A stretch of 64,000 nt of DNA from an uncultured bacterium (GCA_938005705.1 CALLML010000048.1:2066-66065); one strand, 5' to 3'. Positions 1,627 through 62,051 are shown, counted from the first letter of the stretch. Notes: generated from the letters alone by a model not told the origin. Translations and numbers: made by a program.

Positions 1627-1762
1627 GTTGTCTTTACGTGCTCGTTTTCTGCGGCGCGAACAAGCTTGCGCCCCACGTCCGAAGAATGTAGGGCCTCAGC
1701 TTGCTGAGGCCGCGAGGCCTTAAACGCGCTGTCAGGACAATAATGAGACGACTCGTAATAAG
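1627..1762 (+). repeat. Interspersed intergenic repeat, copy A (ATTGTCTTTACATGCTCGTTCC ... hairpin ... GTCAGGACAATAATGAGACGAC)
   Basis: Shares conserved 5' and 3' blocks with the copies at 17752-17840, 20616-20747 and 61918-62051 (reverse). Internal perfect hairpin GGCCTCAGC-TTGC-GCTGAGGCC. Confidence 0.8.
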
Positions 1763-2061
1763 AAAGAGAGCGGCGAGCGCCAAGGAGGTCTGGGTGAGGA
1801 ACCCATGAGAAAACGCTGCGCCACTCTCCGAAATTCGATTGTCAATCCATTAGACCGCTGGGCGTCCACGGCGTTCAAAATTCAAGGCTATAATCAAAAG
1901 TAATTGCAAGAAAATGTCTTATAAACGCTGCCGCCCGAGGCAGGCGGGTGAAGCCTGCCGCATGGCTGATTGAAGGTGTTCTTCGCTCTGGATAAGCGGG
2001 TAAATGGCCGGGGATACGACGGAATACACGCTCCCGTAGTCCGAATTCGACCGTCCGGATC

Positions 2062-2874
2062 CTATTCGGGCCCCTCGGCATCCTCCGCCGATTTGGGACC
2101 GGCGCAGAGGCCGCGTTTGGATTCGGCAATGAAACGGGCGAATTCCGCGGCTGGGCCGGCCGGAAATTCACGAACCAGCGCCTCGCGCGCATCGCTGACA
2201 TTGAGGCCGGAAAGATACAGCAGCGAGAACGCCCGCTTCACCTGCCTTCGGGCCTCGGAGTCAAAACCGGCGCGACGTAGGCCGATGATGTTCATCCCAG
2301 CCACGCGATTGAGCGTGTTCGATCGCACGGTGCAATAGGGGGGGCAGTCTTTTGTCAGAATGGCTCCGCCGCCGATCATGGCGAGACGTCCCACGTGACA
2401 GAACTGATGAATGGCGCAATTGCCGCTGATGAAGGCGAAATCCTCCACAATCACGTATCCGGCCAGCAGGGCGCCGTTGGCGAGGATGACGCGTTCGCCC
2501 AAACGCGCGTTATGGCCGACGTGCGAATTGGCCATCAGATAGCAGCGCGGGCCGACGACGGTCGTCGTGCCCTCCTTCGTTCCGCGATGGATCGTCACAC
2601 CCTCGCGAATCACGCATTCCGACCCGATCTCGACGAAGCTCGTCCCACCTTTGAACGCGAGGTCCTGGGGGGTGTCGCCCAGCACCGCGCCGGCGTGGAC
2701 TCGGCAGCATGCGCCGAGGGTTGTGCCGCCGTAAATGACCGCATGTGGCCCGATCCGGCAGCCGTCGCCGATGTGCGCGCCCGCGTGCACGACGGCGAAC
2801 GGGCCGATTTCAACGTCAGCGCCCAGAGATGCGCCATCTTCCACAATAGCACTCGGATGAACAGACATGGTCAT
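2062..2874 (-). CDS. lpxA: Acyl-ACP--UDP-N-acetylglucosamine O-acyltransferase
   Basis: Left-handed beta-helix hexapeptide repeats throughout (MSVHPSAIVEDGASLGADVEIGPFAVVHAGAHIGDGCRIGPHAVIYGG...). LpxA-typical C-terminal helical domain. GAGGAG RBS before the MTM start. Confidence 0.85.
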   Translation of the reverse strand: MTMSVHPSAIVEDGASLGADVEIGPFAVVHAGAHIGDGCRIGPHAVIYGGTTLGACCRVHAGAVLGDTPQDLAFKGGTSFVEIGSECVIREGVTIHRGTKEGTTTVVGPRCYLMANSHVGHNARLGERVILANGALLAGYVIVEDFAFISGNCAIHQFCHVGRLAMIGGGAILTKDCPPYCTVRSNTLNRVAGMNIIGLRRAGFDSEARRQVKRAFSLLYLSGLNVSDAREALVREFPAGPAAEFARFIAESKRGLCAGPKSAEDAEGPE

Positions 2875-2881
2875 GCGCTCC

Positions 2882-59122: not shown

Positions 59123-60481
59123 TCAGGCCGTAGCGGCACGAACCACATCCGCCAGGTAGCGAGTCAGACGGTCCACGACTTCCTCTTCCGGTCCTTCCAC
59201 CATCACACGGCACATGTTTTGGGTACCGGAATAGCGGATCAGTACACGGCCCTGCTCGCCCAGTTCGGCTTCCGCAGCACGAATCGCACGGGTCACATTT
59301 GGAAGGCTTTCGAGCGGCGGCTTTCGCGCCACATCCACATTGATCATCTTTTGCGGATACATTCGCAGCCCAGAAGCCAATTCGGAGAGTTTGCAGCCTG
59401 ACTTTCGAAGCGCCACGAGAAGTTGCAACGCCGAAATAATGCCGTCACCGGTCGTATGGTGTTCCAGAAAGATAATGTGCCCGGATGATTCACCGCCCAA
59501 CACGGCATTTTCCTGCCGCATCGTCTCGAGGACGTAGCGGTCACCGACTTTGGACATTCGATGCCGAATGCCGAGATCGCGCAGCGCAACGCCCAGACCA
59601 AAGTTGCTCATCACGGTCGAGATGGCCAGATCGTTGCGCAACCGTCCCTCCTGTTTCAACAGCCGCGCGAAAATATAGAGCAAATGATCGCCGGTCATCT
59701 CCCGGCCGATCTCATCCACGGCGATCAGCCGGTCACCGTCACCGTCAAACGCCAGCCCGACGTCCGCGCCCACCTCGCGCACCTTGGCCGACAGGTCCTG
59801 CGTAAACTGTGAACCGCAACGGTCATTGATGTTCGTTCCGTCTGGTTCGCAATGAATCGCGGTGACGTGGGCGCCGAGTTCCCAGAAGATGATCGGCGCG
59901 ATTTTATAGGTGGCTCCGTTGGCACAATCCAGGACGACTTTAAGCCCTTCCAGCGAGACCTCCTCCGGCACCGTGTTCTTGCAGAAAACGATGTAACGGC
60001 CCATCGCGTCGTCAATGCGGCGGGCACGTCCAATGCCGTCGGCTGTCGGTCGGTGCCGGTCGAGCTCTTTGGACCGAATGAGGGCTTCAATCTCGTCCTC
60101 CTCGGCATCCGGGAGTTTGTAACCGTCGCGCGAAAAAATCTTGATGCCGTTGTCCTGGTAGGGATTGTGGGAGGCGGAGATGACTAGGCCGGCATCGGCC
60201 CGCATGCTGCGGGTAATGAAGGCGATACCGGGTGTCGGCATCGGACCCACCAGCAGGACGTCCACCCCCATCGAACAAATGCCCGCCGTCAGGGCGGTCT
60301 CGAGCATATACCCGCTCAGCCGCGTATCCTTCCCGATCACGATGCGGTGTGGACCGCGTGGATTGTGCCGCTTGCACACATGGGCCGTGGCACGACCAAT
60401 GGCCAGGGCCATCTCCGCCGTCATTGGCGGCATATTGGCCACGCCGCGCACCCCATCAGTGCCGAATAGGCGTTCACTCAT
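59123..60481 (-). CDS. glmM: Phosphoglucosamine mutase
   Basis: Active-site serine motif SASHNPYQDNGIK. Mg-binding DGDGDR. N-terminus LFGTDGVRG. Confidence 0.9.
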   Translation of the reverse strand: MSERLFGTDGVRGVANMPPMTAEMALAIGRATAHVCKRHNPRGPHRIVIGKDTRLSGYMLETALTAGICSMGVDVLLVGPMPTPGIAFITRSMRADAGLVISASHNPYQDNGIKIFSRDGYKLPDAEEDEIEALIRSKELDRHRPTADGIGRARRIDDAMGRYIVFCKNTVPEEVSLEGLKVVLDCANGATYKIAPIIFWELGAHVTAIHCEPDGTNINDRCGSQFTQDLSAKVREVGADVGLAFDGDGDRLIAVDEIGREMTGDHLLYIFARLLKQEGRLRNDLAISTVMSNFGLGVALRDLGIRHRMSKVGDRYVLETMRQENAVLGGESSGHIIFLEHHTTGDGIISALQLLVALRKSGCKLSELASGLRMYPQKMINVDVARKPPLESLPNVTRAIRAAEAELGEQGRVLIRYSGTQNMCRVMVEGPEEEVVDRLTRYLADVVRAATA

Positions 60482-61725
60482 GAAGTTGCTCCTGGATTGA
60501 CTTTGAATGGCGAAAAATCGGACACGGCATCCACCACCGCCTGTAGCCAATCGGTCGCGGAATTTCGGACATCAGATGGCAGCGCCTGGATAGCGGCGAT
60601 ATAACCGGCCGACCGGTCGGCCTTTTCCCAGGCGGCCAGAAAACGATCGCAAGCCGCTGCGCCGACATCTCCGTCCGGGCCGGCCTCTGCGCGATCAATC
60701 GCCTCCGCGCCATGATCCCGCCACAGCCGGTGCTCCGCCTCAATCGCGGCCGACCAACCGGCGGCCTCGAGCTCTCGCGCCGAACGCCGCATTGCCGCAC
60801 AGACCCGTTCGACCGTCTCGCGCAATCGTCGCGCGCGCTCCCGAAGGATGAGATCGAGCGCGTCGAGGGCACCGACGACGCAAGCCGCCGTCCATGAATC
60901 CGCCGCTGCTGGCCGACGCACCCTCTCATACCATCGGCGTAGCGCGTGAAGGTTGCCGAGATATATGAAATTGTTCGTCACAAGCCGGCGCAAAGAACGA
61001 TACAAACCGCGCACGAAAGGACGCGGCGAGCGCGGCGGTGCGTGTGGAGGCGCATAGACATGCCCCGGTGAGAGGATGTCTTGGCGCACAATATAGCCGG
61101 CCGGGATCACCGTGCCATACTCGACACGTACGGGGCCCACCAGGCCGCCTTGGCCCCCGAGAAAGATCGGCGGTTGATCCAATCGGACGCCCCGCGGCAC
61201 ATCACCAATCAACGACGGCGTGGCCTTGTCCTGGTGCGGAGTGAAATTGAAATGCACATAGGATGAGCCAATTTCGCTATGATCTTTCCGGCTGGTGCCG
61301 CCAGCCATCAGCGCATCGCAGAAATTGATCAGACTGCCAGCGGTGACGAATGGGAAAAGGATTGTTTGCTTGAGGCCCACCGCATGCGCCGCGCTCGCCT
61401 CCTCTTCCAGAATCGTCCCCGGCCGCACATGCGCATTCCCCCCGACATTCGCGCCGGCGAAAAAGACCGACTCGGCAAAATACCCGCTCTTCAGTTCGAC
61501 GTTTCGCTCCAAGCGGCAATTGTCCAGGGTGGCAAGACCCTCTTCGCCGATCACGCAACCCGGTCCGATGGAGAGCCCCGCGCCGCGCAACCGCACACCG
61601 GCGTGCAGGATCGTGCCCGGCGCAATGCGCTCCGGCGCGACCTCCGGCGCCACATCGAGGGAACCCGGATTCATCACCCGCACCCCACGTTCGATGAGAT
61701 GCCCGACCTGTTCTTCCCTGTTCAT
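60478..61725 (-). CDS. Left-handed beta-helix acetyltransferase resembling the GlmU C-terminal (glucosamine-1-phosphate N-acetyltransferase-like) domain, with a ~190-aa C-terminal extension
   Basis: Hexapeptide repeats and a GlmU-C-like segment (HVRPGTILEE...SLINFCDALMAGG...IGSSYVHFNFTPHQDKATPSLIGDVPRGV). GAGGAAGGG RBS before the ATG at 61725. ATGA overlap with glmM. Confidence 0.6.
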   Translation of the reverse strand: MNREEQVGHLIERGVRVMNPGSLDVAPEVAPERIAPGTILHAGVRLRGAGLSIGPGCVIGEEGLATLDNCRLERNVELKSGYFAESVFFAGANVGGNAHVRPGTILEEEASAAHAVGLKQTILFPFVTAGSLINFCDALMAGGTSRKDHSEIGSSYVHFNFTPHQDKATPSLIGDVPRGVRLDQPPIFLGGQGGLVGPVRVEYGTVIPAGYIVRQDILSPGHVYAPPHAPPRSPRPFVRGLYRSLRRLVTNNFIYLGNLHALRRWYERVRRPAAADSWTAACVVGALDALDLILRERARRLRETVERVCAAMRRSARELEAAGWSAAIEAEHRLWRDHGAEAIDRAEAGPDGDVGAAACDRFLAAWEKADRSAGYIAAIQALPSDVRNSATDWLQAVVDAVSDFSPFKVNPGATS

Positions 61726-61917
61726 CTGCCCTTCCTCAGGAACACCAGCCCTTGAAGGCAAACCCCATCCCGGACTATCTACATAAGCACACACCGAGGT
61801 TCCCATTCAAGAACACTTCTCTGCCAGATACCTTATCCAGAAATTACAAGGGTCTTTATACAGAGATCGTTCGTTTTTAGTGAAACAGCGCCATGGTGGA
61901 TTCACGCCGTGAGTCGG

Positions 61918-62051
61918 CTTATTACCAATCATCTGATATTGTCCTGACACGCTCATTCAAGGCATCGCGGCCTCAGCAAGCGAGGCCCTGCACGCTTCGG
62001 ACGTAGGGCGCGATTTGCTCGCGCCGAGGGGAACGAACATGTGAAGATGAC
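61918..62051 (-). repeat. Interspersed intergenic repeat, copy D (inverted orientation)
   Basis: Reverse complement aligns with copy A across the 3' block (..GTCAGGACAATATCAGATGATTGGTAATAAG), the central hairpin (GGCCTCAGCAAGCGAGGCC) and the 5' block (GGAACGAACATGTGAAGATGAC). Confidence 0.7.

What the first reader, a model, noticed from the sequence alone, without database searches (positions are those of the whole stretch)
1627..62051. Interspersed ~90-135 bp intergenic repeat with ATTGTC/GACAAT termini and an internal hairpin, four copies in 64 kb
Copies at 1627-1762, 17752-17840, 20616-20747 (plus strand) and 61918-62051 (minus strand) share three blocks: 5' ATTGTCTTTACATGCTCGTTCC, a central GTCCGAAG-ATG-AGGGCC...GCTGAGGC block, and 3' GTCAGGACAAT(A/T)ATGAGACGAC-NGTA. 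The 6-bp termini are inverted repeats. Copy B has lost the central part. All copies are strictly intergenic. Four copies in 64 kb implies hundreds genome-wide if the density holds. Candidate explanations are a MITE-like non-autonomous element, a REP/BIME-type structural repeat, or a family of small RNAs. The conserved hairpin and the ATG-containing blocks could be functional.
Basis: seen in the sequence. Interest (0 to 1): 0.55.

Follow-up and report, generated by a model that had tools for sequence, protein, structure and literature searches.

The report
Palindromic REP-doublet repeat in Verrucomicrobia
The four look-alike intergenic stretches are real copies of a roughly 147-bp palindromic repeat built around two back-to-back "REP" hairpins; it is a previously undescribed family of a well-known kind of small parasitic bacterial DNA, not a new RNA gene.

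Summary
Four intergenic copies exist (A 1612-1757 +, B 17737-17840 +, C 20600-20747 +, D 61923-62067 -), against 0 expected by chance. The element is larger than described. It is about 147 bp and is an imperfect palindrome from end to end (TACTAATG...CTAGTA), folding at -77 kcal/mol on either strand. Its centre is a head-to-head pair of GTAG-tagged REP hairpins, flanked by complementary arms of 41-47 nt. The window comes from an uncultured Verrucomicrobiota genome. Further copies were found only in two related MAGs, including a tandem pair, truncated copies and a 185-bp variant. Copies form a star-like family. Young copies are 96-97 % identical across MAGs, while the old window copies are 77-81 % alike and have partly lost the fold. 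New G·U and A·C mismatches are equal in number (28 each), covariation is weak, and there is no Rfam match. Relatives lack the element at the corresponding sites. Best reading: a REPIN/BIME/MITE-like non-autonomous mobile repeat, probably moved by a RAYT-type tyrosine transposase. No transposase, empty site or target duplication could be found, so the mobilising enzyme is inferred. "Hundreds of copies" is unsupported. This is a new member of a known kind and of modest interest.

The parts
1612..1757 (+). Copy A, full-length short variant; an old copy, 88-89 % identical to the consensus-like copies. It lies between two minus-strand genes, an SDR (542-1414) and an LpxA-like gene (2062-2940), and is antisense to both.
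1653..1676 (-). Copy A, left REP unit. It reads GTGG-GGCGCAAGCTTGTTCGCGCC on the minus strand, so the tag is degenerate (GTGG instead of GTAG).
   Evidence: consensus GTAG-GGCGCGAGC-TT-GCTCGCGCC
1677..1687 (+). Copy A, 11-nt spacer and apical loop GTCCGAAGAAT. CCGAA is invariant in the 11 aligned copies.
1688..1711 (+). Copy A, right REP unit GTAG-GGCCTCAGC-TT-GCTGAGGCC, with a 9-bp stem, a TT loop and an intact GTAG tag.
17737..17840 (+). Copy B, 104-bp deletion derivative. Both REP hairpins are lost while the arms are 92-100 % identical to the consensus. It lies 39 nt upstream of the ATG of the 859-aa gene (17880-20459), and a promoter-like site sits just upstream at 17713-17740.
20600..20747 (+). 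Copy C, full-length but the most decayed copy; both REP stems are damaged and the fold z-score is -2.1. It lies between convergent genes, 141 nt after the stop of the 859-aa gene and before a terminator-like hairpin at 20825-20850.
61923..62067 (-). Copy D, full-length old copy. The left REP keeps its GTAG tag (GTAGGGCGCGATTTGCTCGCGCC on the + strand at 62003). It lies 193 nt upstream of the 415-aa gene (60478-61725, minus strand).

Best explanation
The copies belong to one family of a non-autonomous, interspersed palindromic DNA repeat of the REP-doublet (REPIN/BIME) kind, in an uncultured Verrucomicrobiota lineage. The consensus is about 147 bp. It consists of a 41-nt 5' arm (TACTAATGYTCTCGAAATTGTCTTTACATGCTCGTTCCTGC), a REP hairpin on the bottom strand (GGCGCGAGC-AA-GCTCGCGCC-CTAC) and an 11-nt spacer (GGCCGAAGAAT). 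These are followed by a REP hairpin on the top strand (GTAG-GGCCTCAGC-TT-GCTGAGGCC) and a 47-nt 3' arm complementary to the 5' arm (...GAACGAGCATGTCAGGACAATTATGAGACGACTAGTA). What is shown: the anatomy; the rod-like hairpin on either strand; presence at unrelated intergenic sites in at least two species-level genomes; size variants, truncated copies and a tandem pair; a star-like identity pattern with a consensus-like 'master'; and neutral-looking decay of old copies. What is inferred: copies are made in trans by a transposase encoded elsewhere in the genome. The most likely enzyme is a RAYT-type HUH tyrosine transposase that recognises the GTAG-tagged REP hairpins in single-stranded DNA, as proposed for REPs and REPINs. 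This would leave no target-site duplication. Once inserted, a copy is passively co-transcribed into 5' or 3' untranslated regions as a long hairpin. Any effect on mRNA stability or termination would be a side effect.
For: There are four copies in the window and none expected by chance. Nine further copies or fragments occur at non-syntenic sites in MAGs R1_Bin_METABAT__307_1 and N1_Bin_METABAT__120_1 and just beyond the window. The consensus-like copy folds into one rod of -76.8 kcal/mol (z -7.4) on the top strand and -77.7 kcal/mol (z -8.8) on the bottom strand. Both internal hairpins carry the unpaired GTAG tag, a 9-bp G+C-rich stem and a TT loop, and are arranged head to head. These are the features Di Nocera et al. 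list for GTAG REPs, which they also report in the verrucomicrobium Opitutus terrae (PMC3733652). The same REP type, GTAGGGC...AGCTTGCT...GCC with a covarying stem, occurs without the arms as a tail-to-tail dimer in L013 5-59. The identity matrix is star-like: B, L010 and L011a are 96-97 % identical; A, C and D are 77-81 % identical to each other but 78-89 % identical to L011a. Old copies lose the fold, with z-scores of -3.8, -2.1 and -1.1. Beyond two fixed wobble pairs, G.U (about 28) equals A.C (28). Variants include a 104-bp deletion copy (B), 185-bp copies with a 37-bp insertion, 5'-truncated copies (L007, L013) and a tandem pair sharing the terminal pentamer (L011). No direct repeat is present outside TAC...GTA at any copy, as expected for HUH-type transposition. 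Three per-run assemblies (L030, L039, L041) end inside a copy or REP remnant, as repeats cause. Relatives at 60-70 % amino-acid identity lack the element next to the orthologous genes.
Against: No RAYT or any other transposase was found. A PxHxHxx motif scan of all held DNA was empty, and Pfam scans of 58 open reading frames from the window and the loci showed only housekeeping and metabolic genes. No whole genome was available. No empty site was recovered, so mobility itself is inferred from distribution and variants. In canonical REPINs the REPs are the conserved ends and the spacer is variable (PMC3337134). Here the REPs are central and the long outer arms are equally conserved. Copy B is young (96-97 %) yet lacks both REP stems, so the arms alone may be the part that matters. 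The conserved TA at both ends could be a 2-bp target duplication of a DDE transposase. The copy number seen is small (13 copies or fragments in all the DNA held).
Confidence: 0.55

Rival explanations
1. A classical MITE, that is, the deletion derivative of an insertion sequence with long terminal inverted repeats. It would be moved by a DDE transposase (IS630/Tc1-mariner-like) that duplicates a TA target, much like Neisseria Correia elements. The REP-like hairpins would be internal passengers.
For: The outer 40-45 nt form well-conserved inverted repeats. One pair of columns differs in a complementary way between subfamilies (A:T versus T:A at columns 20/175), as expected if one protein reads both ends. 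Nearly all intact ends read TA|C...G|TA. Copy B and the 185-bp variant look like different internal deletions or insertions of one longer parent. B keeps only the arms and is young.
Against: The scan of 185,579 representative genomes with the 18-mer from the 3' repeat returned only short elements; no copy of the repeat borders a transposase gene. No transposase is in the window. The TA cannot be told apart from part of the palindrome (TACTA/TAGTA). Two copies that lack the 5' arm (L013, L007) still have 92-100 % identical REPs and 3' arm. GTAG-tagged head-to-head REP doublets are a hallmark of the other mechanism.
Confidence: 0.25
2. A family of structured RNAs, either small RNAs or a cis-regulatory leader whose 5' arm (UUGUCUU) masks a Shine-Dalgarno-like AGGA and AUG in the 3' arm.
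For: The 3' block reads AGGA-N5-ATG-AGA-CGA. The chance hits of the 18-mer in other phyla are real gene starts of that form. In the fold the AGGA is paired. The four window copies fold 2.5 to 10 kcal/mol better on the element strand than on the opposite strand. B and D lie upstream of genes in the sense orientation.
Against: There is no Rfam family at gathering or at E<=10. The consensus copy folds equally well on both strands, and old copies lose the fold. Paired cells are 85.5 % against 84.4 % in shuffles, and covariation is 0.131 against 0.113. New G.U mismatches equal A.C mismatches. A and L014 are antisense to both neighbouring genes, and C and L007 lie after stop codons. The frame after the ATG stops after 6 to about 22 codons at different places and is never in frame with the next gene. 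Relatives lack the element upstream of the orthologous genes. No consistent promoter is found inside the element.
Confidence: 0.05
3. A non-mobile host element, for example a protein-binding or terminator-like palindrome, or a product of local segmental duplication, kept by selection at particular sites.
For: All copies are intergenic. The apical CCGAA is invariant in the 11 aligned copies. C sits in a 3' untranslated position near a terminator-like hairpin.
Against: Flanking sequences are unrelated between copies. Orthologous sites are empty in relatives. Copies decay without compensation. Tandem, truncated and nested debris are present (L010, L011, L013). There is no T-tract after the hairpin. 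The twelfth copy (L040 328-487) has TCGGAAG in the loop.
Confidence: 0.08

Closest known systems
GTAG-tagged REPs and their head-to-head dimers (Di Nocera et al. 2013, PMC3733652), including the GTAG-17 to -20 families of the verrucomicrobium Opitutus terrae
   Same: Both have an unpaired GTAG at one end, a 9-bp G+C-rich stem, a 2-nt TY loop, units with alternative complementary stem residues, head-to-head pairing with a conserved spacer, an intergenic location, and frequent placement after genes or between convergent genes.
   Different: Here the doublet is embedded in conserved complementary arms of 41-47 nt, so the unit is about 147 bp rather than 20-40 bp (or 60-110 bp for a dimer). The sequence could not be matched to any published family; no match was found in the paper's text or supplements. 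The copy number seen is low.
REPINs, i.e. REP doublets forming hairpins, mobilised by RAYTs (Bertels and Rainey 2011, PMC3116915, PMC3337134)
   Same: Both have two inverted REPs and a whole unit that folds into a near-perfect hairpin in single-stranded nucleic acid. Both are non-autonomous, show a population with a master-like sequence and decayed relatives, and leave singlets and truncated remnants.
   Different: In REPINs the REPs are the conserved outer parts and the spacer is poorly conserved. Here the REPs are central, 11 nt apart, and the outer arms are as conserved as the REPs. No flanking RAYT gene was seen. Near-identical copies occur in MAGs of different G+C content, whereas REPINs are described as vertically inherited.
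Correia elements (NEMIS/CREE) of Neisseria and other bacterial MITEs (ERIC/IRU, RUP, Nezha). This comparison rests on my own knowledge, not on a paper read here.
   Same: These are 100-160-bp intergenic imperfect palindromes with long terminal inverted repeats, TA at both ends, size variants caused by internal deletion, and co-transcription into untranslated regions as hairpins.
   Different: Correia elements have no GTAG REP hairpins, have a demonstrated TA duplication, and carry documented IHF sites and promoters. None of these could be shown here.
E. coli BIMEs (mosaics of REP units with linker motifs). This comparison rests on my own knowledge.
   Same: Both are composite units built from inverted REPs plus conserved non-REP modules, and both sometimes occur in tandem.
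   Different: The module sequences and order differ. BIME functions such as gyrase, IHF or Pol I binding were not tested here.

Membership tests
GTAG-type REP (REP superfamily) | A short palindromic stem-loop (stem 5-13 bp, short loop) with an unpaired GTAG tetranucleotide at one end | tested here: met
   GTAG-GGCGCGAGC-TT-GCTCGCGCC and GTAG-GGCCTCAGC-TT-GCTGAGGCC occur in consensus-like copies and in A (right unit) and D (left unit). The criteria are from PMC3733652.
GTAG-type REP (REP superfamily) | Many dispersed, mostly intergenic units per genome; dimers (head to head predominant) | tested here: inconclusive
   Head-to-head dimers and an intergenic location are met. The REP unit also occurs without arms (L013 5-59). 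Only 13 composite copies or fragments were seen, and no whole genome was available for a count.
REPIN-RAYT system | [quoted passage not shown] | tested here: met
   -76.8 and -77.7 kcal/mol on the two strands, with z-scores of -7.4 and -8.8.
REPIN-RAYT system | A cognate RAYT (HUH/Y1 transposase) gene in the same genome, typically flanked by the repeats | not testable with these tools
   None was found in the 64-kb window or about 120 kb of related loci.
REPIN-RAYT system | REPs conserved, spacer between them poorly conserved | tested here: not met
   The arms, REPs and spacer are about equally conserved. The REPs are central and only 11 nt apart.
MITE (DDE transposase-dependent) | Terminal inverted repeats | tested here: met
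   The 5' TACTAATGCTCTCGAAATTGTC matches the reverse complement of the 3' end, TACTAGTCGTCTCATAATTGTC, and the repeat continues inward.
MITE (DDE transposase-dependent) | Target-site duplication flanking each copy | tested here: inconclusive
   There is no direct repeat outside TAC...GTA in any copy. A 2-bp TA at both ends is compatible with a duplication but is also part of the palindrome. No empty site was obtained.
MITE (DDE transposase-dependent) | An autonomous IS with the same terminal repeats | tested here: not met
   All true hits of the terminal 18-mer in 185,579 representative genomes are short elements, and there were none in viral contigs. This is limited by exact matching and by MAG incompleteness.
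Structured RNA family (sRNA, riboswitch or leader) | A match to a curated family, or structure kept by compensatory changes on one strand | tested here: not met
   Rfam gave no match. Covariation barely exceeds shuffles. G.U equals A.C. The fold is lost in old copies.

The most novel reading that the evidence does not exclude
The element is a hybrid replicator. In this reading a REP doublet has become welded to long terminal arms, and the unit has recently spread between distinct Verrucomicrobiota species. Copies in the roughly 61 % G+C genome (B, L010) and in the 64-67 % G+C MAG (L011a) are 96-97 % identical, although the housekeeping proteins tested have no relative above 70 % identity. That would be horizontal movement of a REPIN-type element, which is described as strictly vertically inherited. 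Alternatively, it could be a two-module element usable by two kinds of transposase. A further, weaker possibility is that its outward-facing Shine-Dalgarno/ATG end and hairpin rewire expression of neighbouring genes.
Probability: 0.12. Interest if true: 0.55.

Novelty: new member of a known kind. Interest (0 to 1): 0.3.

Why it matters
REP and REPIN systems have been studied almost entirely in Proteobacteria. A well-delimited family in uncultured Verrucomicrobiota has an unusual architecture, with a central REP doublet and long conserved arms, and near-identical copies in different MAGs. It would be a useful test case for how such elements arise, which module the transposase reads, and whether they ever move horizontally. 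On the practical side, the repeat breaks short-read assemblies of these organisms (three per-run contigs end in it). Gene callers also place spurious small ORFs on it, for example a 58-aa call over copy B, so annotators should mask it. It is not a new regulatory RNA and does not open a long-standing question.

Tried and rejected
- Rfam at gathering thresholds over the whole window, and at E<=10 on two copies, gave nothing credible.
- In the genome scan, 13 of 19 hits (Nitrospira, Frankia, Pelagibacter and others) were chance matches to ordinary gene starts. An initial idea that the window is from Nitrospira was dropped.
- Two viral-contig scans gave 0 hits.
- Three homologue searches were run to obtain orthologous empty sites. 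The nearest relatives of the 859-aa and 415-aa proteins are only 70 % identical and not syntenic. The TylF neighbour of L010 is a widely shared gene with no close syntenic relative.
- A RAYT/HUH motif scan and Pfam scans of 58 ORFs found no transposase.
- The promoter and terminator scan found no consistent promoter inside the element.
- The integron attC idea was rejected because the copies are far apart among housekeeping genes and no core sites are present.
- B and C as ends of a composite transposon carrying the 859-aa gene was considered. The flanks share no convincing direct repeat and the G+C content is not unusual, so this was left as speculation.
- The leader peptide or SD-masking idea was rejected because the reading frames after the ATG are not conserved.
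- The published GTAG family sequences could not be compared, because the figure is not held and the supplements contain no matching strings.

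
Full report
**Observation**

Reading the four stated places shows the same three sequence blocks in the same order: three copies on the plus strand and one on the minus strand. They align with 74 % mean column identity. With up to three mismatches, the 3' block TGTCAGGACAATAATGAGACGAC and the 5' block TTGTCTTTACATGCTCGTTCC each match three times, against 0.00 expected. The central block matches all three full-length copies, against 0.44 expected. 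A profile HMM built from eleven copies finds exactly four copies in the 64-kb window, with envelopes 1612-1762, 17738-17841, 20600-20750 and 61920-62066. Two corrections apply. The inverted repeat is not a 6-bp terminus but runs through the whole element.

**Where the window comes from**

The proteins next to copies B and D are found, letter for letter, on contigs of ENA assembly ERZ6864144 and on a 69.4-kb NCBI contig. Named homologues of the 859-aa protein are from Terrimicrobiaceae, Cerasicoccus, Methylacidiphilales and other Verrucomicrobiota. The window has 61.1 % G+C. It carries ordinary chromosomal genes: mreB/mreC/PBP2, RNase E/G, mnmA, rmuC, glmM, lpxA, a secretin and its ATPase. No transposase is present, and there is no tRNA.

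**Other copies**

Inspection shows that 13 are chance matches to ordinary gene starts, that is, a Shine-Dalgarno site plus ATG plus Arg-Arg. Six are true copies: five contigs of MAG R1_Bin_METABAT__307_1 (64-67 % G+C) and one of N1_Bin_METABAT__120_1 (61 % G+C). L011 holds two copies in tandem. A larger piece of the N1 contig holds a second, older copy (L040 328-487). A right-arm fragment lies about 3.2 kb beyond the right end of the window, upstream of dnaE (L038 183-224). The metagenome scan with the 5' block gave only chance hits, and viral contigs gave none. None of the related loci is syntenic with the window.

**Anatomy**

The consensus-like copies (L011a, L010) read TACTAATGCTCTCGAAATTGTCTTTACATGCTCGTTCCTGC | GGCGCGAGCAAGCTCGCGCC CTAC | GGCCGAAGAAT | GTAG GGCCTCAGCTTGCTGAGGCC | GCGACGCCGTGAACGAGCATGTCAGGACAATTATGAGACGACTAGTA. 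The 147 nt fold into one rod of -76.8 kcal/mol on this strand (z = -7.4) and -77.7 kcal/mol on the other strand (z = -8.8). An alternative cruciform with two local hairpins costs only about 7 kcal/mol more.

The two local hairpins are the informative part. Each is a 9-bp G+C-rich stem with a 2-nt loop, preceded by an unpaired GTAG. One lies on each strand, with the tags facing each other. This matches the description of GTAG-tagged REPs and their predominant head-to-head dimers given by Di Nocera et al. (PMC3733652). Those authors also report that the verrucomicrobium Opitutus terrae is rich in such repeats. A REP of the same type, with a covarying stem (GTAGGGCTCGAGCTTGCTCGAGCC), occurs without the arms in a tail-to-tail dimer at L013 5-59. 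The REP unit therefore exists on its own in these genomes. Two inverted REPs that fold into one hairpin are what Bertels and Rainey call a REPIN (PMC3337134).

**Variants**

- Copy B (104 bp) has lost both REP stems but keeps the CTAC tag, the spacer and the arms.
- L007, L013, L014 and L011b carry a 37-bp insertion in the loop of the right REP, giving about 185 bp.
- L007 and L013 lack the outer or the whole 5' arm.
- L010 is preceded by a 23-nt fragment of another 5' arm and followed by a REP-like remnant.
- In L011 two copies share the terminal pentamer.

**Family structure**

B, L010 and L011a are 96-97 % identical, although they come from genomes of different G+C content. A, C and D are only 77-81 % identical to one another, but each is closer (78-89 %) to L011a. 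This is a star-like pattern around a master sequence.

Old copies have partly lost the fold, with z-scores of -3.8, -2.1 and -1.1 for A, C and D. On the common structure, 85.5 % of cells pair against 84.4 % in column shuffles, and the covariation score is 0.131 against 0.113. After setting aside the two wobble pairs fixed in the consensus, about 28 cells are G.U and 28 are A.C. That equality is the neutral expectation for transitions, not what selection for an RNA fold on one strand would leave. No module (arms, REPs or spacer) is clearly better conserved than the others.

**Context**

- A lies between two minus-strand genes and is antisense to both.
- B lies 39 nt upstream of the 859-aa gene, behind a promoter-like site.
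- C lies 141 nt after that gene's stop and before a terminator-like hairpin.
- D lies 193 nt upstream of a 415-aa gene.
- In the MAGs, copies lie between co-directional genes in sense (L006) or antisense (L014), after a stop codon (L007), upstream of a GH92 gene (L013), or in divergent intergenic regions (L010, L011).
- In L011 the start codon of the divergent gene is 11 nt from the element's end. In L014 the stop codon of a 1024-aa ORF falls in the element's terminus.

Relatives whose orthologues are 60-70 % identical have other neighbours or an unrelated spacer at the corresponding places, and no element. Three per-run assemblies end inside a copy or REP remnant, as expected for a multi-copy repeat.

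**Interpretation**

The evidence fits a non-autonomous mobile repeat that decays after insertion. Because the core is a head-to-head GTAG REP doublet and no direct repeat flanks any copy, I favour mobilisation by a RAYT-type HUH tyrosine transposase acting on the single-stranded hairpin. This step is inferred. No such gene is in the roughly 180 kb I could read, and the rest of the genomes was out of reach.

The main rival is a DDE-type MITE. Three things speak for it: the long arms are good terminal inverted repeats, almost every intact end reads TA|C...G|TA, and young copy B has arms only. Three things speak against it. No IS with these ends turned up among the true hits of the terminal 18-mer. 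The TA is indistinguishable from the palindrome itself. Young copies without the 5' arm also exist.

A structured-RNA family is unlikely for the reasons given above and because Rfam has nothing similar. The frame after it ends after 6 to about 22 codons at different points and never joins a gene.

**Copy number**

Four copies in 64 kb and two in 19.6 kb suggest a locally high density. However, the exact 18-mer, present in 4 of the 7 copies of the 61 % G+C genome(s), occurs on only one contig of MAG N1_120 and five of R1_307. MAGs under-represent repeats, so the true number is unknown. Tens seems more likely than hundreds.

**Verdict**

This is a real repeat and a new sequence family of a known kind (REP doublet, REPIN, BIME or MITE-like palindromic element) in uncultured Verrucomicrobiota. 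Its unusual traits are the long conserved arms around a central REP doublet and the near-identity of young copies across MAGs. The first would matter for how REPINs originate, and the second for whether they can move horizontally. Neither could be settled here.

Noticed in passing
window 20819-20833; 28520-28660; 53916-53994: This is a second, unrelated palindromic repeat, TTCCAAGCCTTGGAA, with 7 matches against 0.05 expected. One copy is part of the terminator-like hairpin after copy C. Three to four copies with a 32-nt period lie directly upstream of the DUF5060 gene start (about 28674). Three more with the same 32-nt period lie at 53916-53994. It could be a regulator-binding array or another REP-like family.
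   Followed up: partly
window 61726-63237: This is about 1.5 kb between the 415-aa gene (minus strand) and a 121-aa lipoprotein gene (63238-63603, plus strand). It contains no Pfam-recognisable gene and has lower G+C (0.557). Copy D lies in it, and gene callers place only a 71-aa ORF there.
   Followed up: partly
L038 183-224 (about 3.2 kb beyond the right end of the window, upstream of dnaE): This is a right-arm fragment of the same element (GCTGAGGCCATGACGCCGTAAAAGAGCATGTCAGG). It is a fifth, truncated copy in the same chromosome region.
   Followed up: yes
L030 1-29, L039 1-46, L041 1-22: Three contigs from per-run (Logan) assemblies of the same samples begin inside copy B, inside copy D, and inside a REP-like remnant next to the L010 copy. 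The repeat evidently breaks short-read assemblies.
   Followed up: yes
L034 43-349: A cluster of four GTAG-tagged REPs of a different family (GTAGCTCCGGCG...CGCCGGAG) occurs in another Verrucomicrobiota contig of the same assembly, which lacks the element studied here.
   Followed up: no
L013 5-59 and 85-125: A tail-to-tail dimer of GTAG REPs without arms occurs here (GTAGGGCCCGGCC......GGCTCGAGCAAGCTCGAGCCCTAC). It is followed by a run of short TACG-containing repeats (GTACGAGTACGTTCTACGTTCCACGTCTTACGTCCTAC) that replaces the 5' arm of the neighbouring copy.
   Followed up: partly
L011 2576-2590 and L014 6739-6745: In L011 the ATG of a signal-peptide protein gene lies 11 nt outside the element's 5' end, on the other strand, so its promoter and leader must lie within the tandem copies. 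In L014 the stop codon of a 1024-aa ORF falls in the element's terminal CTAGTA.
   Followed up: partly
window 5692-9120 (minus strand): One uninterrupted 1143-codon frame carries E1_dh, Transket_pyr, Transketolase_C, Biotin_lipoyl and, at its C-terminus, ACP_syn_III (FabH-like) domains. This is an unusual fusion if it is a single gene.
   Followed up: no
L001, L004, L005, L015 and others: The element's 3' block AGGACAATWATGAGACGA also occurs by chance in unrelated phyla as a normal translation start (a Shine-Dalgarno site, 5 nt, then ATG-AGA-CGA encoding Met-Arg-Arg of signal peptides). This explains the false Nitrospira lead.
   Followed up: yes
window 17629-17805 (L029 1899-2075): A public gene call of 58 aa overlaps copy B and is most likely an artefact of the repeat.
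   Followed up: no
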